Shown here: piece after piece, positions 3,859 to 58,147 of the stretch
How the letters are laid out: every line of letters starts with the position of its first letter
How positions within the stretch are numbered: the first letter of the stretch is position 1
Origin: Candidatus Eiseniibacteriota bacterium
Lineage (GTDB): Bacteria; Joyebacterota; Joyebacteria; Joyebacterales; Joyebacteraceae
Reading direction: 5' to 3'
DNA length: 64,000 nucleotides
Assembly: GCA_030595835.1 (NCBI GenBank)
Contig: JAUVLG010000001.1
Span: 4,614-68,613, forward strand
Position numbers and translations under genes: made by a program
Notes under the pieces: generated by a model
What the model was told of the DNA's origin: nothing
Databases searched by the model: none
The model's input: only the letters and a program-made list of their open reading frames with translations

Positions 3859-3896
3859 CGGGCCAGCCGTGCGGGAGCCGAACGGAAGGGCGCACA

Positions 3897-7907: not shown

Positions 7908-7952
7908 CGGTGGGCAGGGCGCCAGAAGAAGCGCGGAAGGGACCCTCGGTTG

Positions 7953-34918: not shown

Positions 34919-34921
34919 GAA

Positions 34922-38932: not shown

Positions 38933-38935
38933 TAC

Positions 38936-43396: not shown

Positions 43397-43426
43397 TAGG
43401 CCCTTGAGGGAGGCGGAGCCCTACAA

Positions 43427-44533: not shown

Positions 44534-46311
44534 CAGGGGACGCGCTGAAGAACCCCGGCGGGGGAGCCGTCGTGTGGAAAACACTCGTCTTCTCGGGACT
44601 CGGGTTCGCGCTGGCCGTCGGCGCTCTGCTCGGTGTGGTCGGATTCCGGACCAGCGGGTTCGTGCTGACCCTCGTGCCCTCGCAAGTATTGCCAATGCTG
44701 GCCATCTTCGCACTTCTGTACACCGCGCTCGCCGGACTGTGTCTGCTCCTCACCGCCGGCGCGAGAAGGCGCGGCGGGAGCGCCCGCGCCTCCGAACGCG
44801 CGGTCATGACGGCTCTCTTCACCGCAACTCTCTGGGCCGCGCTCGTGCTGATGTTCCTCCCGCTCAAGGGCGCGGAGGCCTTCGTGCAGGCGGACACGCT
44901 GACCACGCTGCAACTCAACGTGATCGGGCTCGCGGTCGTACTGGTGGTCGGCCTTGTTGCGGGCTGGGTTCTCGGCCGGGTGTTGTCTGCCGTCCTCTCG
45001 GCTCTCAGAAGACGAATGGGCAGACGCGGAATCCTCCTGCTTGGAGCGGCGTCCGCGGTCGCGGCTGTCCTGGTCCTCATCGTGGGTGTCCAGCTCAGAT
45101 CCGGTGGGACGGGAGCCTCGGGCGTAGCTGTCGCGGCCGGCGAGACCCCCAGAGTCGCGATAATCGGAGTCGACGGTTGTGACTGGGAAAAGCTCGGACC
45201 TCTAGTTGAGTCGGGCAGACTCCCGAACTTCCGACGCATCATGGAGCGCGGGGCCTACGGACCGCTCCTGTCGGAGCCGCCTCTGGTCTCGCCTCGTATC
45301 TGGACGACCATCGCGACCGGCAAGACGGCCGACAAGCACGGCATCCGCGACTTCATCAACGACGTCGGGGTGCCTGTGAACGCCACAATGAGGACGGCCG
45401 CGCCCGTCTGGGACATCGTCTCCAGCTTTGGTCTCCCTGTCGGTGTTGTCGGGTGGTACGTCACATGGCCGGTGGACGAGGTCAACGGCTTCGTATTGTC
45501 CGACCGGCTCCATTCGTTGCTGCGTGGCCCGGTGCAGATGCTTCAGTCGCTCGGCCGCCACACGACGAACGAGCGTCTGGAGTCCTTCGGAGCGTTCACG
45601 TTTGACGCGGGGTACAAACGCCATGGGGAGGACGAGCTCCGCTTCCAGCTCAACAGGATTGTAGACGAGCCTCTTCGCTGGGGGTATCTGCGCGACGCCA
45701 TCTACACCCGCATGTCAACCACTCTGACGCCGGGCTACAGACCGGTCTTCTCAGCCGTATACCTACGCGGCGTCGACTTCGTTCAGCATTTCTTCTGGCA
45801 GTACGCGGACCCCGAGCCCTTCGGCGGCGTTTCTGAGGAGAGCATCTCGGCGTACGGGGAAGTGATCAACAACTACTACGAATACACCGACGTTCTGCTC
45901 GGTCGGTTGCTCGAGGCTCTGGACGACGACGTCAACATCATCGTGGTGTCCGACCACGGTTTCAAAGCGCGCCTGGACCTGGACCCGGGCAGACCGCAAC
46001 TGACCGGCAGGCATGACGTGGCCGGGGTCATCATTGCGTCCGGCCCCGCGTTTCGCGCGGCGGGACACTTCGAGGGCGCGACGATCTTCGACATTGCGCC
46101 CACGGCGCTCGCGATCATGGGGCTGCCCGTGGGGGAGGACATGGACGGCAGGGTGCTGTTGGAGATCATCAAGCGGGAGCACTTGGCCGTTCGGCCGCTG
46201 TCGTTTATCCCCTCGTACGAGCCCGCCCTCGGTAAGGAGAGGGGAGAGGTCGGGTCGACGATGGACGACGCGATAAGGGAACAGCTCAAGTCACTGGGCT
46301 ACATTGAGTAG
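44530..46311 (+). CDS. Membrane-anchored NPP-family phosphodiesterase, paralog of 41978-43396
   Basis: About 200-aa N-terminal polytopic segment, then PRIWTTIATGKTADKHGIRDF and IIVVSDHGF. C-terminal ...QLKSLGYIE parallels the upstream paralog. ATGA overlap with the GT9 stop. Confidence 0.65.
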   Translation: MTGDALKNPGGGAVVWKTLVFSGLGFALAVGALLGVVGFRTSGFVLTLVPSQVLPMLAIFALLYTALAGLCLLLTAGARRRGGSARASERAVMTALFTATLWAALVLMFLPLKGAEAFVQADTLTTLQLNVIGLAVVLVVGLVAGWVLGRVLSAVLSALRRRMGRRGILLLGAASAVAAVLVLIVGVQLRSGGTGASGVAVAAGETPRVAIIGVDGCDWEKLGPLVESGRLPNFRRIMERGAYGPLLSEPPLVSPRIWTTIATGKTADKHGIRDFINDVGVPVNATMRTAAPVWDIVSSFGLPVGVVGWYVTWPVDEVNGFVLSDRLHSLLRGPVQMLQSLGRHTTNERLESFGAFTFDAGYKRHGEDELRFQLNRIVDEPLRWGYLRDAIYTRMSTTLTPGYRPVFSAVYLRGVDFVQHFFWQYADPEPFGGVSEESISAYGEVINNYYEYTDVLLGRLLEALDDDVNIIVVSDHGFKARLDLDPGRPQLTGRHDVAGVIIASGPAFRAAGHFEGATIFDIAPTALAIMGLPVGEDMDGRVLLEIIKREHLAVRPLSFIPSYEPALGKERGEVGSTMDDAIREQLKSLGYIE

Positions 46312-46355: not shown

Positions 46356-47624
46356 GTGAGGGCCATCAAGAAACTCCAGACCCTGCTTGCCACACATGCA
46401 TCTTCAACACCCACGCGGGTCGGTCGCGTTCTCGGCGTCGTGCTTCTCGGCGCTGGCCTGCAGATCGTCACGCAGACGTTGCTCGCCCGCACACTCCCCA
46501 AGACACAGGTTGGAGTGATATCGCTTCTTCTCGGCGCCCTTCCAATCCTGACAACGCTGTCAATGGCCGGGCAGGGCGCGTCCGTCGTGCGCTTCCTCTC
46601 GAGGAGCGCGCGCGGCACGTACGATACGGCCGCGCACGTACGACGTATCCTCGCTCTCGTACTGCCTCTCGGGGCCGTGGCGGCGCTGGCCGGCGCCGGA
46701 TTCTACGCGCTGGGCTGGGGGCTCGCTCTGGTGCTCGTCGCTCTCGTCGTCTCGCAGAACACAGCGGTGACCGTGAGCTCGGTCCTGCGCGCGGAGCACC
46801 GCTATGAACTTGCAATGGCGGCAACGCACCTGCCTGCCATGGCTGCCGCGCTCGCGCTCATCGTGCTGCGACTCTCAGGACTACTCACGTTCAGAACCGC
46901 CGTCGTGACCTTCGGCGTCGCGTTCCTGTTCTCCGGTTGCCTGATCGCCGTGCGCTGGGCCAAGACGGCTCGAACGGGCGGAAAACCGGTGCCCCGCTCG
47001 GTGGTGCGTGAGGGCCTCTTCCTCCTCGGCCTGAACATCTCCTTCGCGCTCATGGTGTCCGTAGACAAGCTCGTCATAGGGAAGATGCTGCCGTACGCTG
47101 AGTTGGCGGTCTACGCCTCGATCTTCAGCGTCATGAGAGGCTTCGACTTCCTCTTCTACTCGGTTACCTACGTGCTCATGCCGAGGGTCAACGTCCTCCG
47201 GAAGGTTCCGCTTCGGCAGTACAACATTGTGATTGCGGGTCTAGCCGGCGTTGTCACCGTGGGATACCTTCTCCTGGGGGACGACGTCGTGAGCTTCCTT
47301 TATGAGGGGCGCTACGACGAAGGGGCCTATCTCATACTGCCTTTCGCCTTGTCTGGCGTCGCCAAGCTGTTCTACTCTGTTCCCTCCAGCGTGATAGGCG
47401 GACGATTGCCACGACCGGCCCTGAGGCAGTTCCTGTGGTTCAACCTCGCTGCCGTGGTCGTGAACGTGGTTCTGGACATTATCATGATCCGGGCCATGGG
47501 ACTGATGGGGGCGGCGATCGCCACCGCGATCGCGTGGAGCTTGAGGCTTGCGGGAGGCTACATCATCCTCGCGCGGAACCGCTCCCTGCTCGACGTGCGA
47601 GCTGAGGGAACGCCTGAGCCGTAA
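46356..47624 (+). CDS. MOP-superfamily oligosaccharide flippase (Wzx-like)
   Basis: 422 aa with about 12 TM helices and a polysaccharide-biosynthesis-protein layout. GTG start. Confidence 0.65.
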   Translation: MRAIKKLQTLLATHASSTPTRVGRVLGVVLLGAGLQIVTQTLLARTLPKTQVGVISLLLGALPILTTLSMAGQGASVVRFLSRSARGTYDTAAHVRRILALVLPLGAVAALAGAGFYALGWGLALVLVALVVSQNTAVTVSSVLRAEHRYELAMAATHLPAMAAALALIVLRLSGLLTFRTAVVTFGVAFLFSGCLIAVRWAKTARTGGKPVPRSVVREGLFLLGLNISFALMVSVDKLVIGKMLPYAELAVYASIFSVMRGFDFLFYSVTYVLMPRVNVLRKVPLRQYNIVIAGLAGVVTVGYLLLGDDVVSFLYEGRYDEGAYLILPFALSGVAKLFYSVPSSVIGGRLPRPALRQFLWFNLAAVVVNVVLDIIMIRAMGLMGAAIATAIAWSLRLAGGYIILARNRSLLDVRAEGTPEP

Positions 47625-47730: not shown

Positions 47731-50106
47731 ATGAAGACCAGCAAACGACACAGCGAAGAGCGGAGAGTGCGCGCGCCAAGGGACGGCGAAGCGCCGCCAC
47801 TCTTCGGAAGCCACGCGACACTCATCTCGATCCTGCTCCTGGTAGCCGCGGGGCTCATCTTCTTCTGGCGAGTGCTCTTCCTTGGTGAGATCCTGACGGG
47901 CGGCGACGTCCTGGCTGCGGCAGCCATCTTCGAGGACTACGCGACGGACCAGATGGCGAGCGGGCGGCTCCCCCTCTGGAACCCGTACATCTTCTCGGGA
48001 ATGCCGTTCTTCGACAGCATGAGCTGGAGTGCCTTCGTCTACCCGAGCTACTGGCTCACGTTTGCCCTGGAGAAGATCCCGGGCGTCGAGCTGCCCCGGC
48101 TCTTCTTCCTGTTCCTGCACTACGAGCTGGCCGCGCTCGGCACGTACTTCTACCTGCGGTCACGTAAGGTCGGCCACGGCGGCGCCGTCATCGCGGGGCT
48201 GGCCTTCATGCTGTCACCTCATATGATAGGCTTAGCTACGATCGGGCACGGAGGGAAGATACTCGCGACGGCTTATCTTCCGCTCATCCTGATGGCCGCG
48301 CACAAGCTGATGGAGTCGGCTGACAGGCGGTGGATCGCGATTCTGGGCCTCGTCGGCGGGCTGCAGTTCCTCGCCCGACACGTGCAGATAAGTTACTACA
48401 CATGGCTGGCCGTCCTCGTGCTTATGGTCTACTACCTTGTGGTGCGCCGCCGGGCAGGCGAGCCGTGGAACGCACTGGGCGCGAGCGTCGGGTCAGTGGC
48501 AATCGGCGGCGTTCTGTCCGCAATGCTCGCGGCCGTTCTGCTTCTGCCACTCATGAGTTACTCAGAGTTCTCTACGCGCGCCGCGCACGCCGGCGGGATG
48601 GGTTTCGAGAACGCGGTGATGTGGTCGATGCACCCCAAGGAACTCCTGACCTTCCTTGTCCCGTCCTTCTTCGGCCTGGCGAACGAAACCTACTGGGGGA
48701 CCATGCCGTTCCAGCAGGTCTCTCACTACGTCGGTTACGTGGTGCTCTGCCTCGGTGCTGTTGCGTTGATACGAAGGAAGGACCGCAGCGTCGGCTTCCT
48801 TCTTGCCCTGGTGGCCGTTGGGATCTTCATGTCGTTCGGACGGCACCTGGGACCTGTCTACAGGGTGATCTACCAGGTGCTGCCGGGCTTCCGGCGCTTC
48901 AGGGTCCCTGCCATGTCGCTGATACTGGCGCAGTTCTCGCTGGCGGTACTCGCCGGCTACGGTGCCTCGCTGCTGCTGGGGGAAACCGGGCGTCGCCGGG
49001 GAAGCATGGTACGGTGGGCCATCGGTTGCGCCGCGCTCGGAGGCGTGGTGAGTCTGATCGTAATGGCATCTCGGGGATCGATCGGATCCGCGGCCACAAC
49101 GGCGCTCATGCTGAAGCACGTCGGTGCCCAGGCATCCGCGCTCCGGGAGGTCGGCGCACGTGCGGCCACCATGGCGTTCCGGGACGCAGGAATCCTATTG
49201 GCATTCGCTGCCGCCTCGGGCGTGGCGGTCTTCGTCGCCGGCACGCGCAGGCTGCCTCGCCTGCTCGTGTTCACCCTGCTTCTCGGAGTGGTGATCTGGG
49301 ACGTGGGTGTGGTGAACGCGCGCTTCATGCACCCAGAGAAGATGAGTTCGCTCGATCAGTACTACCGGGAGTCACCGGCCGTATCGTTCCTGAAGCAGCA
49401 GGAGGGCGTGTTCCGGATCGCGCCCGTCGACAGGGAGTTCTCCTCGAACGTGTGGATGTACCATCGGATCCAGACCATCGGCGGCTACCACCCGGCCAAG
49501 CTGGCGGTCGCCGACGACCTTCTGGGCAAGCTGGGTATCGGCAATCTGAAGCTCCTGGCTCTCCTCAACGTCAAATACGTAGTCGGGCCGGAGGAACTCG
49601 ATCACCCGGCGTTTGTGCGCGTTGCACCCGGGGTACACGAGAACCTCGCTGCATTCCCAAGGGTGTTTCTGATCGGCTCGGTCAAGCAGGTCTCGCGCGA
49701 GAGGATGGCACTGACCGAGCTCGGTATCGACAACTTCAATCCGGCAGAGACCGCGATCTTGCTGGAGGAGCTGCCCGGCCCGGTATTTGGCACCGAGGGG
49801 AGCACAGCCGAGCTGGTTTCGTACGAAGCGCACGAGATGACCGTGCACGCCAGCATCCGGCAACCTTGTCTTCTCGTCTTTTCCGAGGTATACTATCCGC
49901 CGGGTTGGAAGGCGTTTGTTGATGGCGCCGAGACGACAATCTATCGAACCGACTACGCTCTGAGATCGGTGTATCTTACGCTCGGTGAACACACCGTGGT
50001 GATGAGGTACGTCCCATCTCAGTTGCGTCGTGGCCTCTTCATCAGTCTCCTCGCGGCCGCTGCCCTAGTGGGACTTTTGGTGTGGCCGGTGAAGCGACAC
50101 GAATAG
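47731..50106 (+). CDS. YfhO-family GT-C membrane glycosyltransferase
   Basis: 791 aa. Large N-terminal TM domain, then a C-terminal domain with EVYYPPGWKAFVDGAETTIYRTDYALRSVYLTLGEHTVVMRY, the characteristic YfhO tail. Confidence 0.75.
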   Translation: MKTSKRHSEERRVRAPRDGEAPPLFGSHATLISILLLVAAGLIFFWRVLFLGEILTGGDVLAAAAIFEDYATDQMASGRLPLWNPYIFSGMPFFDSMSWSAFVYPSYWLTFALEKIPGVELPRLFFLFLHYELAALGTYFYLRSRKVGHGGAVIAGLAFMLSPHMIGLATIGHGGKILATAYLPLILMAAHKLMESADRRWIAILGLVGGLQFLARHVQISYYTWLAVLVLMVYYLVVRRRAGEPWNALGASVGSVAIGGVLSAMLAAVLLLPLMSYSEFSTRAAHAGGMGFENAVMWSMHPKELLTFLVPSFFGLANETYWGTMPFQQVSHYVGYVVLCLGAVALIRRKDRSVGFLLALVAVGIFMSFGRHLGPVYRVIYQVLPGFRRFRVPAMSLILAQFSLAVLAGYGASLLLGETGRRRGSMVRWAIGCAALGGVVSLIVMASRGSIGSAATTALMLKHVGAQASALREVGARAATMAFRDAGILLAFAAASGVAVFVAGTRRLPRLLVFTLLLGVVIWDVGVVNARFMHPEKMSSLDQYYRESPAVSFLKQQEGVFRIAPVDREFSSNVWMYHRIQTIGGYHPAKLAVADDLLGKLGIGNLKLLALLNVKYVVGPEELDHPAFVRVAPGVHENLAAFPRVFLIGSVKQVSRERMALTELGIDNFNPAETAILLEELPGPVFGTEGSTAELVSYEAHEMTVHASIRQPCLLVFSEVYYPPGWKAFVDGAETTIYRTDYALRSVYLTLGEHTVVMRYVPSQLRRGLFISLLAAAALVGLLVWPVKRHE

Positions 50107-50118
50107 GGGAACCCCTGC

Positions 50119-50832
50119 ATGAAGACTACGGTGGTAGTGCCCACCTACAACGAGAGAGCGAACCTGGAAGAGCTGATACCGCGCATCCTGGGGCAGCTCC
50201 CCGACATTGAGCTTCTGGTTGTCGACGACGGTTCCCCGGACGGGACCGGCGAGTACGCGGACTCGGTGGCGGCTGAGAACCCGCGCGTCCAGGTGCTGCA
50301 CCGGCCCGGGAAGATGGGCCTGGGTTCCGCCTATGTCTACGGCTTCACGCATTGCCTCGCCACGGACACCGAGCTCGTGATCCAGATGGACGCGGACTTC
50401 TCGCACAACCCGGACGAGATTCCCAAGCTCGTCGAGCGGGCGCGCACACACGACGTCGTTCTGGGCTCGCGGTACATCAGCGGGGCCAATGTGGTCAACT
50501 GGCCGCTCAGGCGACTGTTTCTGAGCTACTTCGCGAACGTGTATACGCACATCATCACTGGACTGCCACTTCGGGACTCCACGGGCGGTTTCAAGTGCTT
50601 CCGCCGGAAGGTTCTGGCTGAGATAAAACTCGATACCATCAAGTCCGACGGGTACTCGTTCCAGATAGAAGTGAACTTCAGGAGCTGGAGAAAGGGCTTC
50701 TCGATGGTCGAGATCCCCATAGTGTTCGTGGATCGTCACTCCGGCACTTCGAAGATGTCCAGGTGGATAGTATGGGAGGCGATGTGGTTGGTCTGGCGCC
50801 TGAGACTCGAGAGAATACTGAGGAGGCTGTGA
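50119..50832 (+). CDS. Polyprenol-monophosphate hexose synthase (Dpm1/Ppm1-like GT2)
   Basis: VVVPTYNERANLEELI...LVVDDGSPDGT...IQMDADFSHNP: canonical dolichyl/polyprenyl-phosphate mannose synthase core. 237 aa, soluble. Confidence 0.8.
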   Translation: MKTTVVVPTYNERANLEELIPRILGQLPDIELLVVDDGSPDGTGEYADSVAAENPRVQVLHRPGKMGLGSAYVYGFTHCLATDTELVIQMDADFSHNPDEIPKLVERARTHDVVLGSRYISGANVVNWPLRRLFLSYFANVYTHIITGLPLRDSTGGFKCFRRKVLAEIKLDTIKSDGYSFQIEVNFRSWRKGFSMVEIPIVFVDRHSGTSKMSRWIVWEAMWLVWRLRLERILRRL

Positions 50833-53036
50833 GCTACCCTTCAGAGCCCGACCTCTCGATTGTCATCGTCGGCTACAACAGCCTGCCGGAGCTGGGCAGG
50901 TGCCTGGCGTCGGTTCGAGATACCGCGGCCGCCATACATCCTGAGATCGTGGTTGTTGACAACGCCTCCGCAGACGGTACGGTGGAGTTCCTGGAGCGGG
51001 AACTCCCCGATGTGCGTCTGGTGGCCAACGGCAGGAACGTCGGTTACTCCAGGGCGGTCAACCAGGGCATAGCCGAGGCCAGGGCACGCTATATCCTGGT
51101 GCTCAATCCTGACATCGTCGTGCTCCCGGGCGCGCTGGACCGACTCGTCTCGTTCATGGACGACCAGCCGGATGCCGGAATCGCAGGGGCGAAGCTACTG
51201 AACGAGGACGGATCTCTACAGCACTCGTGCAGGCGCTTCTACACATTCTGGACGCTGGTGCTTCGACGAACGCCACTCGGGAAGCTGTTCCAAAACGGCA
51301 AGACGATCTCACGCTATCTGATGCTCGAGTTCGACCACGAGGAGTCGAGGGAAGTAGACTGGGTTCTCGGCGCCTGCATGATCGTGCGGAGAACGGCGCT
51401 CGCTGATTTCGGGGGTATGGACGAGCGCTTCTTCCTGTACTTCGAGGACGTCGATTGGTGCTACCGCGTCTGGCAGAGCGGGTGGAAGGTCTGGTACGTC
51501 GCCGATTCCGTCATGCGGCACCGGCACGCGCGGGAGAGCGCGCGAGGCGGCCTCTCCAAGCAGCTCATCGCGCATGGGCTCTCCATGATCCACTTCTACG
51601 AGAAGTGGGGGAAGGCGATCTACGGGTTGAAGAAGTACCGGACGGTTCTCACCAACTCGGTCCTCCTGTTCACCGACCTCGTCGCCATCAACGTCGGCTT
51701 CGGACTCGCCTACATCCTGAGGTCCAGCCTGCACGGACTTCTCGAGAAGCCGATGTTCGGTGTCTCGATCTACGCGACATTGCTGGCGTTCGCCAACCTC
51801 GTTTTCGTGGTCTCGTACGGGTTCTTCGGGCTGTACGGGGCCTCCATCGAGAGGGAGCGGTCATCGGACGTGGCCCTGAGGATCTTCAGGGCGGCCCCTG
51901 TAGCCGCTATCATCCTGATGGCGAGCACGTTTCTCACATCGAGGACCGTCTACTCGCGCGTACTCATAGCCGCCTTCTGCGTCCTGGCGGTCGTCCTGAC
52001 GTTCCTTCTGCGGATGGGACTCAAGAGGCTCCACTGGCTGGTGCGCGCCGGGCGATTCGACCTGACGAGGGTGGCGGTGGTTGGTACGGACGAGACCTCC
52101 CGCAGAGTGGCGGAGCGGCTGCTCTCGCACTCCGCGCTGGGCTATGATCTGGCCGGGCTCGTGGCGGCCGACGGCGACGAACGACCACCGGGCTTCCAGG
52201 TTATCGGGCGGCTGGAGGATCTGCCCGAGCTCATCGAGAAGCACCGGGTCGGAGAAGTCATATTCGCGGACTCGGAGATCTCTCAGGAGAGGGTCGCCGA
52301 CTTCCTCCTCAAGGCAAGAAGAAGCGCCGTCGACGTCAAGATGGTGTCCGGACTGACCGGCATCCTGACGCAGCGGGCTAAGGTCGAGGAATTCCTGGAC
52401 CTCCCCGTTGTCGCATTCGAACGCGAAGCGCTCCTTAGAGCCGATGCCGGGATCAAGCGTACGTTCGACGTCGTCGCAGCCGCCCTGCTCATTGCCATCT
52501 GGGCGCCGCTTCTTCTCGTAACGTCCGTCGCTACCCTGATAACCAGGAAGACCGGGCCTCTCTCGACGGTCGAGTGCGCGGGTCTGGGCGGAAGAACGTT
52601 CAGCATGCACGTCCTCAACAGGATCGACGAGCCGTCGGCGCTCAGGAGGTTCACGCTTCGTCACGGGCTCTCTGTCTTCCCGGCGGTCATCAATGTGCTG
52701 AGAGGTGACATGAGTTTCATCGGTCCTCGCGTGGTCGCCCCGGTGGACCCCGGCTCCCTCAACCTGAGGGAGCGACTGCGATTCGATGCGAGGCCGGGGA
52801 TCACCGGCCTTGCGCGGGTGTCCGCGGGGGAAGATCTGTGTTCTCGAGACGAACTCGAGGCACTCGACGCCTACTACGTGCAGGGTTGGTCCCTCGGCGG
52901 GGACGCCAAGATCCTGATGAGATGGTCCATGCAGTGCCTTCTGGGATGGGTTCATGTGTCGGGTGAACCAGGTTCGCTCGGAGCGCCGACGGCGTCCGAG
53001 GAGCTCGCCGGATCCGGCGCGTCCGGCGACCATTGA
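50829..53036 (+). CDS. Fusion protein: N-terminal GT2 glycosyltransferase + C-terminal WbaP-type polyprenyl-phosphate glycosylphosphotransferase (large PGT) domain
   Basis: N-terminus has SIVIVGYNSLPEL...VVDNASADGT...YFEDVDWC GT2 motifs. Four TM helices and a CoA-binding-like domain follow. The PGT core carries KRTFDVVAAALLIAIWAPLLL...NVLRGDMSFIGPRVVAP...PGITGLARVSAGEDL...LDAYYVQGWSLGGDAKIL. GTG start at 50829 overlaps the upstream stop (GTGA) and follows AGGAGG. Confidence 0.7.
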   Translation: MSYPSEPDLSIVIVGYNSLPELGRCLASVRDTAAAIHPEIVVVDNASADGTVEFLERELPDVRLVANGRNVGYSRAVNQGIAEARARYILVLNPDIVVLPGALDRLVSFMDDQPDAGIAGAKLLNEDGSLQHSCRRFYTFWTLVLRRTPLGKLFQNGKTISRYLMLEFDHEESREVDWVLGACMIVRRTALADFGGMDERFFLYFEDVDWCYRVWQSGWKVWYVADSVMRHRHARESARGGLSKQLIAHGLSMIHFYEKWGKAIYGLKKYRTVLTNSVLLFTDLVAINVGFGLAYILRSSLHGLLEKPMFGVSIYATLLAFANLVFVVSYGFFGLYGASIERERSSDVALRIFRAAPVAAIILMASTFLTSRTVYSRVLIAAFCVLAVVLTFLLRMGLKRLHWLVRAGRFDLTRVAVVGTDETSRRVAERLLSHSALGYDLAGLVAADGDERPPGFQVIGRLEDLPELIEKHRVGEVIFADSEISQERVADFLLKARRSAVDVKMVSGLTGILTQRAKVEEFLDLPVVAFEREALLRADAGIKRTFDVVAAALLIAIWAPLLLVTSVATLITRKTGPLSTVECAGLGGRTFSMHVLNRIDEPSALRRFTLRHGLSVFPAVINVLRGDMSFIGPRVVAPVDPGSLNLRERLRFDARPGITGLARVSAGEDLCSRDELEALDAYYVQGWSLGGDAKILMRWSMQCLLGWVHVSGEPGSLGAPTASEELAGSGASGDH

Positions 53037-53082
53037 GAAGGCTCTAGCTAGGCTATGATCTTGCATGAAGGAGCAGACAACC

Positions 53083-54456
53083 ATGAGACTACTACTGCTT
53101 ATCTCACTCGTCGTCGCGCTCGTGCCTGCGCTCCCTGCGGGAGCTCAGGAGTGGCTGGAGGTGCCACTCCCGGACGGGCCGAGCGACGGGAACCCGAAGA
53201 TCCTCGACATTGCCGTGGAGGGTAGCACGGTGTGGTTCTCCACGCTGCGCGACGGCATCATCGGATACAACGGCGCGGAGTGGGTCCTTCATACGCTCGA
53301 GGACGGTGGGCTCCGCAGCAACAATTACCGGTACGTGATTTTCGTCGACTCGGACGGAGACAAGTGGACCTCAAAGGACAACAGCGATTTCGCCGTGGAC
53401 AGACTCGATGACGGCGGGAGTTTCCTTTTGAAGAGCGACGACATCTGGACCTACTACAACAGCCCCACACCGTTGCAGAGCAACCGTGTGTTCGCAATGT
53501 CCGAGGATTCGGCCGGAAACAAGTGGTTCGGGATCAGGGACGAGAGCAGCAGCAACGCGGAGCCTACTACACTCGAACTCCTTGTAGAGAACGACCCTGA
53601 TACGACCGCGGATGACGAGTGGTTGGCGTTCGACTACTTCGACGACGAGAGCCTCTTCTTCGATGATGATGTGAGGGGTCTGGCGGTCGACCACGAGAAC
53701 CGTCTTTGGATCGTCTACGCGCCCGAAGGCGTGGGGATGGGGCTCGACGTGTGGGAGTTCGGCGACTACTACTCCTTTGACGACGATACGGTGACGCACT
53801 ACGGCCCGCTCGAGGGCCTCCCCAGCAGGTCGGTGTACGACGTCCACGTCGGACCGAACGGCCGCGTCTGGGTCGGGACCCAAGCGGGCCCGGCGTATCT
53901 GGACGCGTCGACCGATCAGTGGGTCGCTATCGACGACGTCACGGCCAGGACCCGGTCGGTCGCATCGGACGCCCAGGGACACATATGGGCCGGCACCGAC
54001 GAGGGTGTCGTCATGCTCTACAGAAGCGGTGAGGTTGTGAAGACCTACACCGCGCTCGCCGACGGCTTGCACGACGATGCGATCGCCCTGGTTGGCGTTG
54101 ATCAGACGAACGGAACGGTGTGGGCCGTCTCCGTGAACGGCGTGGACGAGACCTTCCTCAACGTGCTCGAGTCCGGGTTCGGTCCGGAGCCGCGCCTCTT
54201 CGCCTATCCCAACCCATGGAAGGCAGGGGAGACGTCCGAGAGGAACGTGAGTATCCTGGGCGCACCGGAGGGCTCCACCGTCGAGATCCTTGATATCATG
54301 GGGCAGAGCGTCCGGAAGCTCGACGCGGAGCGTGAACCCTACGTCTGGAATTCACTGGACGACGACCTGAACGAGGTGCCGAGCGGAGTGTATGTGGTCA
54401 GGGTAGAGACCCCCGCGGGCGAAATGATGTTCACGAAGGTCGCCATCATAAGGTAG
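53083..54456 (+). CDS. Secreted beta-propeller-like protein with T9SS type-A / FlgD-Ig-like C-terminal sorting domain
   Basis: Signal peptide MRLLLLISLVVALVPALPAGAQE. Repeated ...W.GT..G... propeller-like units. C-terminal domain FAYPNPWKAGETSERNVSILGAPEGSTVEILDIMGQSVRKL...SGVYVVRVETPAGEMMFTKVAIIR, with G.Y...V and terminal K..I.R. Confidence 0.6.
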   Translation: MRLLLLISLVVALVPALPAGAQEWLEVPLPDGPSDGNPKILDIAVEGSTVWFSTLRDGIIGYNGAEWVLHTLEDGGLRSNNYRYVIFVDSDGDKWTSKDNSDFAVDRLDDGGSFLLKSDDIWTYYNSPTPLQSNRVFAMSEDSAGNKWFGIRDESSSNAEPTTLELLVENDPDTTADDEWLAFDYFDDESLFFDDDVRGLAVDHENRLWIVYAPEGVGMGLDVWEFGDYYSFDDDTVTHYGPLEGLPSRSVYDVHVGPNGRVWVGTQAGPAYLDASTDQWVAIDDVTARTRSVASDAQGHIWAGTDEGVVMLYRSGEVVKTYTALADGLHDDAIALVGVDQTNGTVWAVSVNGVDETFLNVLESGFGPEPRLFAYPNPWKAGETSERNVSILGAPEGSTVEILDIMGQSVRKLDAEREPYVWNSLDDDLNEVPSGVYVVRVETPAGEMMFTKVAIIR

Positions 54457-54459
54457 CCA

Positions 54460-55923
54460 ATGAACAAGCAGAAGAAGGAAGTTCGCACGCTGGTGGTTGG
54501 TGCGGGATCCGCCGGGACGATGGCCGCAACCGAGATGGCCAAACGCTCCGAGCATGGCTACGTCGTCACGGGGTTTCTTGATGACGATCCGGCGAAGCTT
54601 GGGCGGACGATCGCCGGGGCTCCGGTGCTCGGTGCCATAGCGGACCTTGCAGTCGTCGCAGCCGAACACGACATCCAGGAAGTAGTCATAGCCATACCCT
54701 CTGCATCAGGCCACACCATCCGCGAGGTGGTGCGACTCTGTGAGGGGGCCGGGCGCTCGTTCAAGATCGTCCCAGGCGTCTGGGAGATAATCCTCGGCGA
54801 CGTCCAGATCAGTCAGATCAGGGAACTCGAGCTCGCGGATCTGCTGGGACGCGAGACCGTCGCGCTCGACACCGAGAAGATGACCGCCTATCTCAGCGGT
54901 CGCGTCGTCCTCATCACCGGCGCGGGCGGTTCCATCGGGTCCGAGCTGGCCAGGCTCGTCGCCGGGTTCAAGCCTTCGTGCATCCTTCTGATGGGACGGG
55001 GGGAGAACAGCGTCTACGAGATCGACAGGGAGCTGGCGATCGACCACCCGGACGTCAGTCGGGTTCCTGTTATCGGCAGCGTTACAGACGAGGTGGCGCT
55101 GGAGAAGGTCTTCGCCGAGCACCATCCAGAGATAGTGTTCCATGCGGCCGCGCACAAGCACGTTCATCTGATGGAGTTCTTTCCGGACGAGGCCATCAAG
55201 AACAACGTTACCGGCACGCGCAGGCTGATCGAGGCGGCCACGAGGCACGACGTCGACCGGCTTGTGATGCTCTCGACGGATAAGGCGGTGCGCCCGAGGG
55301 GTGTCATGGGCGCGTCGAAGCGCCTGGCAGAGCTGACGATACTCAGGAAGACGGCGGCGGGGTGCCGCACCAAGCTGATCGCCGTGCGTTTCGGCAACGT
55401 ACTGGGCAGCCGAGGCAGCGTAGTACCCATGTTCCAGCAGCAGGTTCGGCTTGGTGGGCCCGTCACGGTGACGCACCCGGACGTGACGCGATACTTCATG
55501 ACCATCCGCGAGGCCGCGATGCTCGTGCTGGAGGCCGGTTTCGCCGGCCGCGGTGGTGAGATATTCGTGCTGGATATGGGGGACCCCATACGAATAGCGG
55601 AACTGGCCGAGCACGTGATCAGGCTGTCCGGCCTCGAACCCGGCACGGATATCGCTATAGAGTACTGTGGACTCCGTCCTGGCGAGAAACTGCACGAGGA
55701 GCTGTGGTCCTCAGCGGAGACCTTGTCGCGGACCGAGTACGAGAAGATCATGGTCCTGAAGTCCAGTGACACACCGCCGCTCGCGCAGACGACCGCTGCC
55801 TCCGACGCGCTGGAGGAACTGGCCGCACGCGGCGACCGCGAGGGAATTGTCCGGATGCTCCGTGAACTGTTCGAGGACATGCCGGCGGAGGAGCTAGATG
55901 AAGACGGCACTACCTGCGGTTGA
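54460..55923 (+). CDS. UDP-N-acetylglucosamine 4,6-dehydratase (PglF/CapD/WbpM family, soluble form)
   Basis: N-terminal CoA-binding-like domain, then SDR core VLITGAGGSIGSEL...MGASKRLAE... Confidence 0.8.
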   Translation: MNKQKKEVRTLVVGAGSAGTMAATEMAKRSEHGYVVTGFLDDDPAKLGRTIAGAPVLGAIADLAVVAAEHDIQEVVIAIPSASGHTIREVVRLCEGAGRSFKIVPGVWEIILGDVQISQIRELELADLLGRETVALDTEKMTAYLSGRVVLITGAGGSIGSELARLVAGFKPSCILLMGRGENSVYEIDRELAIDHPDVSRVPVIGSVTDEVALEKVFAEHHPEIVFHAAAHKHVHLMEFFPDEAIKNNVTGTRRLIEAATRHDVDRLVMLSTDKAVRPRGVMGASKRLAELTILRKTAAGCRTKLIAVRFGNVLGSRGSVVPMFQQQVRLGGPVTVTHPDVTRYFMTIREAAMLVLEAGFAGRGGEIFVLDMGDPIRIAELAEHVIRLSGLEPGTDIAIEYCGLRPGEKLHEELWSSAETLSRTEYEKIMVLKSSDTPPLAQTTAASDALEELAARGDREGIVRMLRELFEDMPAEELDEDGTTCG

Positions 55924-57097
55924 GGGCGGCGAACCCGTCAGGGAGGAATTCCTTCCGTTCGCGACGCCCTCCGTTGGCGAGGACGAGATAGCCGAGGTCG
56001 TCGAGACCCTGAGATCTGGATGGCTGACCGTCGGTCCGAGAACGAAGAGGTTCGAGGAGATGATCGCGGGCTACGTTGGGGTCGCACGTGCGGCGGCTCT
56101 CAGCTCGTGCACGGCGGGCCTGCATCTCGGCATGATAGCCCTCGGCGTGGAGGAAGGCGACGAGGTCATCCTCCCGGCACTCAACTTCGTTGCCGGGCCG
56201 AACTGCGCGATTCATCTTGGCGCGACACCAGTGCTCGTGGATGTGGACCCAGAGACGCTCAACGTAACACCCGAGATCCTGGCTGCCGCGATCACGGAGC
56301 GCACGAAGCTCATCGTGCCGGTGCATTATGGGGGACGGCCGATTGACATCGACGGCATCATGGAGGTTGCGCGCTCCCGGGGTATTCCGGTTCTGGGTGA
56401 CGCCGCGCATGCTCTGGGGTCGGACTACGGCGGACGCAAGGTGGGGTCCGTTGCTGACGCCACGTCGTTCAGCTTCTACGTGACCAAGGGGATCACAACC
56501 GGAGAGGGGGGCAGCCTGACCTCCCCGAACCCCGACCTGGTTGAGCGCGTCGGAGTCTTGAGCCTCCACGGAATGAGCAGCGGGGCGTGGAACCGCTACT
56601 CGGCGCGCGGCTCGTGGTTCTACGAGATCCACGAGGCAGGTTACAAGTACAACATGAACGATATCCAGGCCGCCATCGGCGTCCACCAGATGAAGAAGAT
56701 CGACGAGTTCAGAGACAGGCGAGAGAAGATCGCACGAATCTTCGATCGCGGGCTTCGGAGCGAAGAGGCGATCAGTGTGCCCTCCTCGTCCGAGTCGAGC
56801 GGACACGCGTGGCACCTGTACCCGATCCGCTTGAGAACGCAGGCGCTTAAGGTCGACCGCGACTCGTTCATAGGGTGTCTCAGGGACGAGGGAATAGGAA
56901 CGAGTGTCCACTTCATTCCGGTCCACTACCACGACTACTACAGCAAGCGGCTCGGCTACAAGCGCGGTAGTTTCCCTGTGACCGAGACGTTCTTCGAGCA
57001 CGCGGTCTCGCTTCCCATCTACCCGTCGATGAGCGATGCTGATGCGAACGATGTGGTCGAGGCAGTGACCAAACTGCTGGCCTACTACAGGAGATAG
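55898..57097 (+). CDS. DegT/DnrJ/EryC1/StrS-family PLP-dependent sugar aminotransferase (PglE/PorR-like)
   Basis: SFSFYVTKGITTGEGG lysine motif and overall DegT fold. Confidence 0.85.
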   Translation: MKTALPAVEGGEPVREEFLPFATPSVGEDEIAEVVETLRSGWLTVGPRTKRFEEMIAGYVGVARAAALSSCTAGLHLGMIALGVEEGDEVILPALNFVAGPNCAIHLGATPVLVDVDPETLNVTPEILAAAITERTKLIVPVHYGGRPIDIDGIMEVARSRGIPVLGDAAHALGSDYGGRKVGSVADATSFSFYVTKGITTGEGGSLTSPNPDLVERVGVLSLHGMSSGAWNRYSARGSWFYEIHEAGYKYNMNDIQAAIGVHQMKKIDEFRDRREKIARIFDRGLRSEEAISVPSSSESSGHAWHLYPIRLRTQALKVDRDSFIGCLRDEGIGTSVHFIPVHYHDYYSKRLGYKRGSFPVTETFFEHAVSLPIYPSMSDADANDVVEAVTKLLAYYRR

Positions 57098-57160
57098 CCC
57101 TTCTGGGAGCGTCCGGGGTGATCCCCAACGAGGCTATCGCCGAGGACAGGCAGAGAAGAG

Positions 57161-58147
57161 GTGGCTCAAGCGTTGGACATAGAGGTATCAGTCGGCATCG
57201 ATTCGCAGGAGTGGGGCTGCCTCGTCGCTGAAGACGAGGCAGCTACGTTCTTCCATACGTCGGAGTGGTCCGAGGTTCTGACCTCGACGCTGCCCGGCTT
57301 CGAGTCGGCGCACGTCACCGCGCGTGAGCACGGTCGTTTGGTGTCCATCATGCCGGTACTCAGTCGACCGAGGCTCAGGACCGCGACGCTGGAGTCAATG
57401 GCTTTCGGCACCTTCGGAGGACCGGTGCTGGGCGCCCACGCTCCCGCGGCCGCAGCGGGGGCGGTACTCGCTGCATTCGCCGGCGCTGCGGCGTCGCTGC
57501 GGGTCGGGCTGGCGCAGGTGGTCGACCGGTCGGGCCGAATACAGGACTCGCATCTGCCCGGCTTCCGCCGCACCGACGATACTCTGCAGGTCGTTTCTCT
57601 CGAGGCGAGCTACGACGAGCTCGAGAGACACTTCAAGCCGTCCGCCCGCAACAAGGTGCGGAAGGCCATCAAGGCCGGAGTGACAGTCAGACGCGCGGAG
57701 TCCGAGGCGGACTTCCTGGCCTACCACGCGGTCCTCGAGGAGTGCAGCCGCGAGTGGGCGATCAGGCCACGCCCGGGACGCGAGTTCTTCAGCGCGCTGT
57801 TTGAGCTCGACCGGGACGTGGTGCAGATGTGGCTGGCGTTTCACGATGGTGACGTGCTGGCGGGCGACCTCAACTTCGCCCTTCACGGGACCGTGATGAA
57901 CTGGGGCAACGTGTCGACCGACGCCGCCAAGTCGCTCGCGCCGAACAACCTCCTGCACGCCAACGCGATAGAGCAGGGCGTGCGTGACGGGTACCAGACC
58001 TATGACCTTGGCTCGAGCGGCGGCATCGAGGGAGTCAGAGCTTTCAAATCGTCCTTCGGGACGGCGGACGTCCCGCTGCGAAGATTCGTGATGGAGAAGA
58101 CCTGGTATCGTGGCCTGAAGAAGGCTACTGGTCGCCGGTCGGGCTGA
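57161..58147 (+). CDS. FemAB / Acetyltransf_6-family (GNAT-fold) acyl- or aminoacyl-transferase
   Basis: Motifs SARNKVRKAIKAGVTVRRAESEADF, FFSALFE, WLAFHDGDVLAGDLNF, YQTYDLGSS and AFKSSFG match the BioF2-like/FemAB-like acetyltransferase family common in polysaccharide loci. GTG start. Confidence 0.6.
   Translation: MAQALDIEVSVGIDSQEWGCLVAEDEAATFFHTSEWSEVLTSTLPGFESAHVTAREHGRLVSIMPVLSRPRLRTATLESMAFGTFGGPVLGAHAPAAAAGAVLAAFAGAAASLRVGLAQVVDRSGRIQDSHLPGFRRTDDTLQVVSLEASYDELERHFKPSARNKVRKAIKAGVTVRRAESEADFLAYHAVLEECSREWAIRPRPGREFFSALFELDRDVVQMWLAFHDGDVLAGDLNFALHGTVMNWGNVSTDAAKSLAPNNLLHANAIEQGVRDGYQTYDLGSSGGIEGVRAFKSSFGTADVPLRRFVMEKTWYRGLKKATGRRSG

What the first reader, a model, noticed from the sequence alone, without database searches (positions are those of the whole stretch)
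50829..53036. GT2-PGT fusion whose phosphoglycosyl-transferase domain appears to lack the catalytic Asp-Glu dyad
The C-terminal domain aligns well with large (WbaP-type) polyprenyl-phosphate glycosylphosphotransferases (KRxFD..., NVL+GDMSFIGPR, PGITGLA...L.LD.YYV..WSL..D.KIL). In the conserved ...SLDELPQL.NVLKGDMS... segment, which holds the catalytic Asp-Glu dyad in PglC/WbaP, this protein reads ...GLSVFPAVINVLRGDMS (D to S, E to V). The upstream FxQxRxG...KFRTM stretch is also degenerate (TGPLSTVECAGLGGRTFSMHVL). This may be a pseudo-PGT domain retained for scaffolding or polyprenyl-phosphate binding, fused to an active GT2. If so, the locus's true initiating enzyme is another protein.
Basis: inference. 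Interest (0 to 1): 0.55.

Follow-up and report, generated by a model that had tools for sequence, protein, structure and literature searches.

The report
Dead phosphoglycosyl-transferase domain fused to GT2
This gene encodes a membrane protein with a well-conserved sugar-adding (GT2) domain fused to a WbaP/PglC-like "initiating enzyme" domain that keeps its fold but has lost every catalytic residue; the same dead-domain design recurs in about 80 uncultured species, always next to one partner gene, so the domain was probably kept as a scaffold.

Summary
ORF 50829-53036 (+) encodes GT2, four transmembrane helices, a CoA_binding_3-type DUF and a PGT-like domain.

- **Catalytic residues are gone.** Against WbaP and PglC, the Asp-Glu dyad aligns to Ser615-Val616. 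Lys59/KFRTM is deleted, Arg88 and Arg145 are lost, and the PRP arginine is not conserved in the clade.
- **The domain is still maintained.** It models confidently as a PglC fold (pLDDT 91, TM 0.79) and evolves under purifying selection (dN/dS 0.16-0.22).
- **It is a family trait.** All 78 species-level relatives with the same architecture lack the dyad. They come from MAGs labelled Eisenbacteria, Krumholzibacteriia, Latescibacteria, Gemmatimonadota and Fibrobacteraceae. Canonical GT2-PGT fusions form the neighbouring group.
- **The GT2 domain is the conserved part.** 27% of its positions are at least 90% identical across the family, against 3% in the dead domain.
- **Gene context is fixed.** A TM-less Dpm1/PpgS-like polyprenyl-phosphate glycosyltransferase sits directly upstream in 79 of 80 loci, usually preceded by a YfhO-type GT-C. 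No second PGT lies within ±10 kb in any locus.

Best reading: a pseudo-PGT scaffold for an active GT2, with initiation done by another enzyme, most plausibly the adjacent PpgS-like GT2. This is a new variant of a known kind. Biochemistry is untested.

The parts
50829..53036 (+). ORF for the GT2 / 4-TMH / DUF / pseudo-PGT fusion (735 aa from GTG 50829; alternative starts ATG 50772 or GTG 50763, in frame)
   Evidence: Homologues are 704-785 aa.
50841..51614 (+). GT2 (GT-A) domain, residues 5-262, predicted active. Conserved residues include D44, D49, N93-P94-D95 and E206-D207-x-D209.
   Evidence: Pfam PF00535 4.6e-25. Invariant columns. 69 of 258 positions are at least 90% identical in 78 species. 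GT-A structural matches.
51639..52049 (+). Four transmembrane helices (residues 271-407), as in large PGTs
   Evidence: AF2 helices 271-300, 312-332, 345-370 and 377-407. Foldseek top hit is WbaP 8t53.
52059..52433 (+). DUF / CoA_binding_3-like domain (residues 411-506) plus a beta-hairpin (517-530). The hairpin corresponds to the domain-swap dimerisation hairpin of WbaP.
   Evidence: Pfam PF13727 6.1e-15. Strands E517-522 and E525-530. WbaP dimer and UMP-binding DUF in PMC10942596. Lowest dN/dS of all domains, 0.06-0.15.
52446..52928 (+). Pseudo-PGT domain (residues 540-700): PglC fold with a reentrant helix but no catalytic apparatus
   Evidence: PF02397 79.7 bits. Domain model pLDDT 91.1 and TM 0.79 to PglC 8g1n and WbaP 8t53. 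Site table. dN/dS 0.16-0.22.
52551..52637 (+). Degenerate FxQxRxG...KFRTM stretch (residues 575-603, TGPLSTVECAGLGGRTFSMHVLNRIDEPS): Q45 to V, R47 to C, K59 to V, FRTM and the following loop deleted
52659..52667 (+). Arg611-His612-Gly613, a clade-specific conserved turn just before the former dyad helix (R in 59/64, H in 61/64, G in 59/64 of the Eisenbacteria clade). It is absent from the other clades.
52671..52676 (+). Ser615-Val616 at the position of the catalytic Asp-Glu dyad
50119..50832 (+). TM-less Dpm1/PpgS/AglJ-like polyprenyl-phosphate glycosyltransferase (237 aa). Its stop overlaps the fusion's start. It is the conserved partner gene.
   Evidence: Directly upstream in 79 of 80 pseudo-fusion loci and absent at both canonical fusions examined.
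47731..50106 (+). YfhO-type GT-C glycosyltransferase (791 aa), PgfM1-like at its C-terminus
   Evidence: Within 4 kb upstream in 56 of 66 loci.
53065..54456 (+). Beta-propeller (Reg_prop) protein with a T9SS C-terminal sorting domain. Weakly PorZ-like (78.5 bits, cut-off 260).
   Evidence: Reg_prop protein downstream in L001-L003. A tblastn hit downstream in 39 of 64 loci.

Best explanation
**What is shown.** The protein is a dimer-type large-PGT chassis: four TM helices, a nucleotide-binding-type DUF with a swap hairpin, and a PglC-fold domain with a reentrant helix. The phosphoglycosyl-transferase chemistry of that last domain is dead. An active inverting GT2 domain sits on the N-terminus.

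**What is inferred about the dead module.** It anchors the GT2 at the cytoplasmic membrane face. Through its retained reentrant helix (Lys-Arg, Asp, Pro) and a now non-acidic pocket, it docks a polyprenyl-phosphate-linked acceptor or a partner enzyme.

**What is inferred about initiation.** The first sugar is put on the lipid carrier by a different protein. The most likely candidate is the translationally coupled, TM-less Dpm1/PpgS-like GT2 immediately upstream, which would make polyprenyl-monophosphate-sugar. The fused GT2 would then extend this lipid-linked sugar, or work beside it. A YfhO-type GT-C in the same cassette would use the lipid-linked product on the outer face.

**Basis of each step.** Shown: loss of catalytic residues, retention of fold, purifying selection, GT2 conservation, fixed gene pairing. 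Inferred: what the pocket binds, physical partnership with the PpgS-like enzyme, and monophosphate-linked chemistry.
For: **Catalytic residues.**
- D93/E94 align to S615/V616.
- Across 64 Eisenbacteria-clade sequences the Asp position reads S33, D12, A10, T3, H3, F1, and the Glu position reads R28, S8, V5 and others.
- In 48 sequences of the second clade (MAGs labelled Latescibacterota or Krumholzibacteria) the two positions read V43 and N44.
- K59/FRTM is deleted, R88 and R145 are lost, and the PRP arginine is variable or replaced by Tyr.
- The literature describes these as the nucleophile, an essential lysine and the substrate- or Und-P-binding arginines.

**Fold and framework kept.**
- The domain model has pLDDT 91.1 and TM 0.79 to PglC and WbaP.
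- K7, R8, D11, P24, D169, G104, G110 and P134 equivalents are kept.
- Their roles in membrane topology and polyprenol binding are described in PMC6133551.

**Selection.** dN/dS is 0.16-0.22 for the pseudo-PGT domain, 0.09-0.17 for GT2 and 0.3-1.0 for the tail.

**Family-wide pattern.**
- None of 78 species-level relatives has the dyad.
- 27% of GT2 positions are at least 90% conserved, against 3% in the pseudo-PGT domain, where the conserved residues are Gly/Pro and one Arg.
- The pseudo sequences form one clade apart from 36 canonical DE fusions in an NJ tree of the non-PGT part, with bootstrap support 18/30.

**Context.**
- The PpgS-like GT2 is directly upstream in 79 of 80 loci, overlapping here, and is absent at both canonical fusions examined.
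- YfhO lies upstream in 56 of 66 loci.
- No second PGT lies within ±10 kb in any locus, and none was found among the ORFs scanned across the 64-kb window.

**Precedent.** Polyprenyl-P-sugar synthases are stimulated by co-transcribed membrane partners, as in GacI/GacJ and PpgS/Rv3632.
Against: - No activity data exist, and I could not read model coordinates, so the pocket geometry is unverified.
- The neighbouring PglF-like dehydratase, DegT aminotransferase and FemAB-like acyltransferase make a sugar type that is normally loaded by a PGT. The only PGT homologue nearby is this one.
- 12 of 64 Eisenbacteria-clade members still have Asp at the nucleophile position.
- Arg611-His612 next to the old site is conserved in this clade and could be catalytic.
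- The residues shown to bind Und-P in PglC (R88, R145) are not kept, which weakens the 'still binds polyprenyl phosphate' part.
- Gene adjacency does not prove physical or metabolic coupling.
- Whole genomes could not be searched for a canonical PGT elsewhere.
Confidence: 0.55

Rival explanations
1. The domain is still the initiating phosphoglycosyl transferase but uses non-canonical catalytic residues. Candidates are His612/Arg611 at the turn before the old dyad helix in this clade, and the invariant Asp of the 'SDxVNLP' motif in the second clade.
For: - No other PGT lies in the locus or within ±10 kb in 78 related loci.
- PglF-like, DegT and acyltransferase genes are adjacent.
- R611 and H612 are conserved in 59 and 61 of 64 sequences; Asp is invariant (48/48) two residues before the old site in the other clade.
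- A subset keeps Asp93.
Against: - No candidate residue is shared between clades. Across 78 species only R544, Gly and Pro are at least 90% conserved in the domain.
- Lys59, the PRP arginine, R88 and R145 are lost together with the dyad, and the KFRTM strand/loop is deleted.
- The nucleophile position varies freely (S/D/A/T/H/F/V) while the domain is under purifying selection.
- Some lineages delete most of the segment.
Confidence: 0.12
2. The dead domain is a regulatory or heterodimerising partner for a canonical PGT encoded elsewhere in the genome. It would act as a pseudo-subunit that recruits the real initiating enzyme next to the fused GT2.
For: - Single polypeptides exist that carry a degenerate N-terminal PGT copy plus a canonical C-terminal copy: P0126, P0128, P0129, P0130, P0136, P0140, P0146, P0180.
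- Large PGTs are obligate dimers.
- PGTs can be regulated by protein partners (PMC12802240).
Against: - No canonical PGT is ever encoded nearby.
- WbaP dimerises through the TM and DUF regions, with its catalytic domains 77 Å apart, so a PGT:PGT contact has no precedent.
- The constant neighbour is the PpgS-like GT2, not a PGT.
Confidence: 0.15
3. The TM bundle plus dead PGT domain acts as a carrier or flippase-like escort for polyprenyl-phosphate-sugar. It would be the missing third component of a GtrB/GtrA/GT-C-type system made of the PpgS-like synthase and the YfhO transferase.
For: - The cassette has a synthase and a GT-C but no GtrA-type flippase.
- The WbaP dimer encloses a lipid-filled void between its TM bundles.
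- The upstream, separate ArnC-like module does have its own flippase-like protein.
Against: - No PGT or large-PGT TM bundle is known to translocate lipids.
- The best-conserved part of the protein is a catalytic GT2, which a mere flippase would not need.
- A Wzx-like gene is present at 46356-47624.
Confidence: 0.08
4. The domain is a functionless, decaying remnant of a formerly bifunctional enzyme.
For: It is the least conserved of the four structured domains: 51% mean pairwise identity against 60-65%, and 3% highly conserved positions. Some lineages carry further deletions.
Against: - dN/dS is 0.16-0.22, well below the roughly neutral C-terminal tail.
- The domain is retained at full length with a confident fold across several candidate phyla.
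- No frameshifts or stops occur.
Confidence: 0.03

Closest known systems
Large monotopic PGTs (WbaP of S. enterica, PDB 8T53; WcaJ; EPS sugar transferases TIGR03025)
   Same: Same C-terminal 450-residue architecture: four TM helices, PF13727 DUF with a beta-hairpin, and a PglC-fold domain with a reentrant helix. WbaP is the top structural hit.
   Different: An extra N-terminal GT2. No Asp-Glu dyad, no Lys59/KFRTM, no Arg88/Arg145. A shortened loop. Scores fall below all NCBIfam cut-offs.
Small PGT PglC (C. concisus, PDB 5W7L/8G1N)
   Same: The fold (TM 0.79) is shared, as are K7, R8, D11, P24, D169, the G-x-M-S-x-x-G-P motif and the PG-x-TG motif.
   Different: All residues assigned to catalysis or substrate orientation are replaced or deleted.
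Bifunctional PGTs, specifically canonical GT2 / large-PGT fusions (P0109, P0270-P0311; candidate division KSB3 and others)
   Same: Co-linear domain order, 36-40% identity overall and 51% in GT2. They are the nearest relatives of the family.
   Different: The canonical fusions keep KFRSM, DPR-T and SLDELPQL, and the two examined lack the PpgS-like/YfhO neighbourhood. A KSB3 subgroup has D-L instead of D-E, which may be an intermediate state.
Polyprenyl-phosphate-sugar glycosylation systems (GtrB/GtrA/GT-C; CsbB/YfhO; S. mutans PgfS/PgfM1; GacI/GacJ/GacL; mycobacterial PpgS/Rv3632/Rv3779)
   Same: The cassette contains a PpgS/PgfS/AglJ-like synthase and a YfhO/PgfM1-like GT-C. In known systems the synthase depends on a co-transcribed membrane partner.
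   Different: The known partners are small (GtrA or DUF2304 proteins). None is a GT2 / pseudo-PGT fusion, and the link proposed here is untested.
Archaeal dolichol-monophosphate-linked N-glycan assembly initiated by AglJ (from my own knowledge of Haloferax volcanii Agl pathway)
   Same: AglJ is the best NCBIfam match of the upstream GT2. In that pathway a Dpm1-like GT2, not a PGT, loads the first sugar, and further GTs extend a monophosphate-linked glycan.
   Different: A different domain of life, and no PGT-like scaffold is known there. It serves only as an analogy for the novel reading.

Membership tests
Monotopic PGT superfamily (Pfam PF02397 Bac_transf, PglC fold) | Sequence homology above the family threshold | tested here: met
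   79.7 bits against a gathering score of 27, residues 543-699.
Monotopic PGT superfamily (Pfam PF02397 Bac_transf, PglC fold) | PglC fold with a reentrant membrane helix (Lys-Arg and Ser/Ala-Pro motifs, Lys7-Asp169 pair) | tested here: met
   TM 0.79 to 8g1n and 8t53. K543, R544, D547, A559-P560 and D692 are present.
Monotopic PGT superfamily (Pfam PF02397 Bac_transf, PglC fold) | Catalytic Asp-Glu dyad (Asp is the nucleophile of the covalent intermediate) | tested here: not met
   Ser615-Val616 in the query. None of 78 species-level relatives has D-E. The mechanism is described in PMC10541605.
Monotopic PGT superfamily (Pfam PF02397 Bac_transf, PglC fold) | Essential Lys59 in the KFRTM strand | tested here: not met
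   Val595, with FRTM deleted.
Monotopic PGT superfamily (Pfam PF02397 Bac_transf, PglC fold) | Arg88 and Arg145 (Und-P binding) | tested here: not met
   Leu610 and Gly667. A neighbouring Arg611 is conserved only in this clade.
Monotopic PGT superfamily (Pfam PF02397 Bac_transf, PglC fold) | PRP nucleotide-binding motif | tested here: inconclusive
   The query has P633-R634-V635. The Arg is variable in its clade (A18, E15, R11, Q9 and others) and is Tyr in the other clade.
Monotopic PGT superfamily (Pfam PF02397 Bac_transf, PglC fold) | Phosphoglycosyl transfer to polyprenyl phosphate | not testable with these tools
   Needs an enzyme assay.
Large PGT (WbaP/WcaJ type) | Four N-terminal TM helices, PF13727 DUF and a swap beta-hairpin | tested here: met
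   compared with PMC10942596.
Large PGT (WbaP/WcaJ type) | Score above the NCBIfam cut-off for TIGR03025, TIGR03023 or TIGR03022 | tested here: not met
   206.7 < 295.55, 168.9 < 410.75 and 129 < 403.
GT2 (GT-A, inverting) glycosyltransferases | Pfam match, DxD-type metal/nucleotide site and acidic base motif | tested here: met
   PF00535 88.9 bits. D44, D49, N93-P94-D95 and E206-D207-V-D209 are invariant or at least 90% conserved. GT-A structural hits.
Bifunctional PGT (two active catalytic domains in one chain) | Both fused domains catalytically competent | tested here: not met
   The GT2 domain looks intact, while the PGT domain lacks all catalytic residues.
Polyprenyl-P-sugar / GT-C glycosylation cassette | Co-located polyprenyl-phosphate glycosyltransferase and GT-C transferase | tested here: met
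   PpgS/AglJ/PgfS-like GT2 at 50119-50832 and YfhO/PgfM1-like at 47731-50106, conserved in 79/80 and 56/66 loci. The fusion's own role in the cassette was not tested.

The most novel reading that the evidence does not exclude
In these FCB-related candidate phyla the initiating phosphoglycosyl transfer has been replaced by a Dpm1/AglJ-like glycosyl transfer. The adjacent TM-less GT2 would load the first sugar on polyprenyl monophosphate while docked on the dead PGT module. The fused GT2 would extend it. A YfhO-type GT-C would then transfer the monophosphate-linked oligosaccharide outside the cell. That would be a bacterial, archaeal-style, PGT-independent route for building a lipid-linked glycan, with the PGT fossil kept as the assembly platform.
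Probability: 0.22. Interest if true: 0.8.

Novelty: new variant of a known kind. Interest (0 to 1): 0.6.

Why it matters
Monotopic PGTs are treated as universally catalytic gatekeepers of bacterial glycoconjugate synthesis. Annotation pipelines name this protein 'sugar transferase' or 'polyprenyl glycosylphosphotransferase'.

This family shows that the large-PGT chassis can persist for long evolutionary periods without the chemistry. That gives a natural separation-of-function variant for asking what the TM bundle, the DUF and the PglC fold do besides catalysis, for example docking, dimerisation or lipid-carrier handling.

It also warns against inferring the initiating step of a glycan locus from a Bac_transf hit alone.

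Finally, it defines a conserved cassette (YfhO, PpgS-like GT2, GT2/pseudo-PGT fusion, often a PorZ-like T9SS protein) in Eisenbacteria, Krumholzibacteriota and Latescibacterota. The product of this cassette is unknown. In the full-text library available here I found no paper combining 'phosphoglycosyl transferase' with 'pseudoenzyme', and none describing a dyad-less monoPGT. The 2021 PNAS network study of monoPGT fusions could not be read.

Tried and rejected
- **Search for another initiating enzyme in the window.** tblastn with PglC and a canonical large-PGT domain hit only this ORF. Pfam scans of about 45 ORFs found no PF02397 and no PF00953 polyPGT.
- **Second PGT near relatives.** None lay within ±10 kb in 84 loci. 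The one apparent hit, in L023, was an artefact of my ORF extraction: it is the fusion's own domain.
- **Regex classification of the dyad.** It failed on divergent members ('none'), so I replaced it with alignment to PglC.
- **Midpoint-rooted tree.** It was uninformative. I re-rooted on a canonical fusion and bootstrapped, which gave only moderate support, 18/30.
- **Neutral-decay explanation.** Rejected on dN/dS.
- **Literature access.** The O'Toole et al. 2021 PNAS paper on PGT fusions is not held. What I say about 'Bi-PGTs' comes from the summaries in PMC10942596 and PMC10186338.
- **Model coordinates.** They are not exposed by the tools, so I could not measure where R611/H612 sit relative to the old active site.
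- **PorZ assignment of the downstream gene.** I considered it, but the score is far below the cut-off (78.5 against 260), so I report it only as PorZ-like.


Full report
**1. Observation.**

From GTG 50829 it encodes 735 aa. That GTG overlaps the TGA of the upstream gene. ATG 50772 has AGGTGG 5 nt upstream and corresponds to the start called for the 91%-identical P0001, so it is an equally plausible start.

Pfam finds GT2 (PF00535, 4.6e-25), CoA_binding_3 (PF13727, residues 333-506) and Bac_transf (PF02397, residues 543-699). The Bac_transf score is only 79.7 bits. The NCBIfam models for EPS, WcaJ and WbaP sugar transferases all match below their cut-offs, and the match splits at residues 593-604.

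phmmer against PDB aligns WbaP 'TSLDELPQLFNVLKGDMS' with 'HGLSVFPAVINVLRGDMS'. Translation of 52644-52718 confirms RRFTLRHGLSVFPAVINVLRGDMSF.

I verified the PglC sequence and numbering from the PDB alignment. Against it the query shows these replacements:

| PglC residue | Query |
|---|---|
| D93 | S615 |
| E94 | V616 |
| K59 | V595, with FRTM deleted |
| R47 | C583 |
| R88 | L610 |
| R145 | G667 |
| PRP | P-R-V |

**2. Why these residues matter.**

In monoPGTs the Asp carboxylate attacks the beta-phosphate of the UDP-sugar and forms a covalent phosphosugar-enzyme intermediate. Lys59 is catalytically essential (PMC10541605). K59, R88 and the PRP arginine orient substrates and are conserved across monoPGTs (PMC12802240). 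Arg88 and Arg145 mediate Und-P binding, and their variants lose 100-200-fold activity (PMC10519829).

By contrast, Lys7-Arg8, Ser23-Pro24 and the Lys7-Asp169 salt bridge set the reentrant topology, and Pro24 contributes to polyprenol recognition (PMC6133551). The query keeps the second set (K543, R544, D547, A559-P560, D692) and has lost the first set.

**3. The fold is intact.**

- The AF2 model of the whole protein has mean pLDDT 86.5 and pTM 0.76. It shows four TM helices (271-407), a Rossmann-like DUF, a beta-hairpin at 517-530 and a confident C-terminal domain.
- Foldseek's best PDB match is WbaP 8t53, and the N-terminus matches GT-A enzymes.
- The domain-only model (pLDDT 91.1, pTM 0.86) superposes on PglC 8g1n with TM 0.79/0.73 and on WbaP with TM 0.79.
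- The hairpin corresponds to the domain-swap element that holds the WbaP dimer together. The WbaP DUF binds UMP and UDP (PMC10942596).

**4. It is a family, not an accident.**

The first homology search returned 120 clusters.

- 71 of them, at 55-91% identity and labelled Candidatus Eisenbacteria where named, read RRFxxRHGL[S/A/D..]x[F/V]P...NVLRGEMS.
- 48, at 39-44% identity (Latescibacterota, Krumholzibacteria), read SDxVNLP....GxxSxVGPYP.
- Both groups lack D-E and KFRTM and share the loop deletion. Only P0109 is canonical.

A scan of GTDB species representatives gave 80 loci. 78 of them lack the dyad: MAGs labelled Eisenbacteria, Krumholzibacteriia, Latescibacteria, Gemmatimonadota, Fibrobacteraceae and UBP1. 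Some lineages have further deletions. L049 is canonical; the other canonical locus, L004, is P0109's own locus.

A search seeded with P0109 found about 40 canonical GT2 / large-PGT fusion clusters, from candidate division KSB3 and others. The pseudo family came directly below them in the ranking. A KSB3 subgroup carries D-L, which may be an intermediate state.

In an NJ tree of the non-PGT 528 columns, all 139 pseudo sequences form one clade that excludes the 36 D-E sequences. Bootstrap support is 18/30, which is moderate.

**5. Selection.**

| Domain | Mean pairwise identity, Eisenbacteria clade | dN/dS, Nei-Gojobori, window vs three relatives and among them | Positions ≥90% identical in 78 species |
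|---|---|---|---|
| GT2 | 0.65 | 0.09-0.17 | 69/258 (27%) |
| TM | 0.60 | 0.10-0.26 | 7% |
| DUF | 0.63 | 0.06-0.15 | 3% |
| pseudo-PGT | 0.51 | 0.16-0.22 | 5/161 (3%) |
| C-terminal tail | 0.24 | 0.32-1.03 | not computed |

The conserved GT2 positions include D44, D49, N93-P94-D95 and E206-D207-x-D209. The five conserved pseudo-PGT positions are R544, G626, G632, P656 and G657.

So the domain is maintained, but as architecture. No chemically reactive residue is conserved family-wide. The nucleophile position drifts (S33, D12, A10, T3, H3, F1). This is what a scaffold predicts, not an enzyme.

**6. Context.**

The window's 32-62 kb region is a glycan locus containing:
- several GT2, GT4 and GT9 genes;
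- a Wzx-like gene;
- two phosphodiesterase/sulfatase-type proteins;
- a flippase-like protein, an epimerase and an ArnC/PgfS-like GT2;
- a PglF-like dehydratase, a DegT aminotransferase and a FemAB-like acyltransferase.

No other monoPGT was found, nor any polyPGT among the window ORFs scanned.

Immediately upstream of the fusion are a YfhO-type GT-C (PgfM1-like) and a 237-aa TM-less GT2. The best NCBIfam matches of that GT2 are AglJ, ArnC, PgfS and PpgS, all polyprenyl-phosphate glycosyltransferases. Downstream is a Reg_prop beta-propeller protein with a T9SS sorting domain, weakly PorZ-like.

The order YfhO, small GT2, fusion, propeller protein recurs in Eisenbacteria and Latescibacterota contigs. 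Across the species set:
- the small GT2 is directly upstream in 79 of 80 loci (the 80th has a weaker hit);
- YfhO lies within 4 kb upstream in 56 of 66;
- a PorZ-like hit lies downstream in 39 of 64;
- no locus has a second PGT within ±10 kb;
- the two canonical fusions examined have none of this context.

**7. Mechanism.**

*Shown:* a conserved, probably active GT2 is fused to a large-PGT chassis whose catalytic site is gone, and the gene is locked to a PpgS-like gene.

*Inferred:* the dead module tethers and dimerises the GT2 at the membrane interface and supplies a docking site. Replacing the acidic dyad by neutral or basic residues (E94 is Arg in 28 of 64) removes the Mg2+ site. In this clade a conserved R-R-F-x-x-R-H-G turn also sits at the N-terminus of the following helix. 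Together these would suit direct binding of an anionic lipid head-group. That motif is clade-specific, and R88 and R145 are not retained, so binding specificity is open.

TM-less polyprenyl-P-sugar synthases are known to need co-transcribed membrane partners, as in GacI/GacJ and PpgS/Rv3632. The 4-61 nt gene overlap and the near-universal adjacency make the fusion the obvious candidate partner.

YfhO-type GT-Cs use monophosphate-linked donors (established knowledge of CsbB/YfhO and Pgf systems). The cassette is therefore coherent with a route in which the PpgS-like enzyme, not a PGT, loads the carrier lipid.

I put about 0.8 on 'not a phosphoglycosyl transferase' and about 0.55 on the overall scaffold-plus-other-initiator model. 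I put about 0.2 on the specific PGT-independent, monophosphate-linked oligosaccharide pathway.

**8. Rivals.**

- *Residual PGT activity through new residues (His612/Arg611, or the SD-motif Asp).* It is kept alive by the absence of any other PGT near PglF/DegT genes. It is undercut by the lack of any shared candidate residue and by the simultaneous loss of six functional positions.
- *A pseudo-subunit for a PGT encoded elsewhere.* This is suggested by tandem degenerate-plus-canonical PGT proteins seen in the representative search. It could not be tested, because whole genomes were out of reach.
- *A flippase-like role.* This is speculative.
- *Neutral decay.* This is rejected by dN/dS.

**9. 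Comparison and novelty.**

The protein works like, and descends from, bifunctional GT2 / large-PGT fusions. It fails the defining catalytic tests of the monoPGT family while passing the fold, topology and architecture tests. It should be filed as a PGT-like pseudoenzyme domain, not as a PGT.

Pseudoenzymes are common in general. In the full-text library available here I found no paper combining 'phosphoglycosyl transferase' with 'pseudoenzyme', and none describing a dyad-less monoPGT. The key 2021 network paper could not be read.

Verdict: a real feature, a new variant of a known kind, of moderate to high interest.

Noticed in passing
window 3855-4652 and 7950-8840: A PcrB-family (GGGP synthase-type) gene and a UbiA prenyltransferase lie close together. 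These are archaeal-type ether-lipid genes on what appears to be an Eiseniibacteriota contig.
   Followed up: no
window 53065-54456; L001-L003 downstream genes: The gene after the fusion encodes a Reg_prop beta-propeller with a T9SS C-terminal sorting domain. It is weakly PorZ-like (78.5 bits, cut-off 260). Longer versions (783-832 aa) follow the fusion in Latescibacterota. The cassette's glycan might therefore relate to T9SS cargo anchoring.
   Followed up: partly
proteins P0126, P0128, P0129, P0130, P0136, P0140, P0146, P0180: Single polypeptides carry two PGT domains. The N-terminal copy has a degenerate dyad (e.g. HLDVLP, HAYELP, GLAGLP, SLADLP) and the C-terminal copy is canonical (xxDELPQL). 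Dead PGT domains may be a wider phenomenon.
   Followed up: no
proteins P0291, P0294, P0296-P0299: A subgroup of otherwise canonical GT2 / large-PGT fusions (candidate division KSB3, e.g. Candidatus Vecturithrix granuli) keeps KFRS and the Asp but reads RLDLLPQF, with Glu replaced by Leu and a partly shortened loop. It may be an intermediate or an independent erosion of the dyad.
   Followed up: partly
window 36541-39889; L002/L003 951-5520: A second, separate polyprenyl-P-sugar module lies upstream: a flippase-like LPG_synthase_TM protein, an epimerase and an ArnC/PgfS-like 317-aa GT2. In Latescibacterota loci a TMEM260-like GT-C joins them.
   Followed up: no
window 33782-36061: A radical SAM/SPASM protein and a DUF362 protein are embedded in the glycan locus.
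   Followed up: no
window 41978-46311: Two Phosphodiest/sulfatase-type (alkaline-phosphatase superfamily) proteins flank a GT9 heptosyltransferase-like gene. The arrangement is conserved in L001.
   Followed up: no
window 54460-58147: A PglF-like 4,6-dehydratase that carries its own CoA_binding_3 domain is followed by a DegT aminotransferase and a FemAB/PEP-CTERM-type acyltransferase. This suggests an N-acylated or aminoacylated 4-amino-4,6-dideoxy-hexosamine.
   Followed up: no
L069 4643 onward: In one MAG the fusion ORF reads through into the PglF-like gene, giving a 1435-aa ORF. This is either a further fusion or an assembly or stop-codon artefact.
   Followed up: no
window 1-64000: Nearly all sizeable genes lie on the + strand, and GC skew is positive across almost the whole window. 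SelA (20269-21681) indicates selenocysteine use.
   Followed up: no
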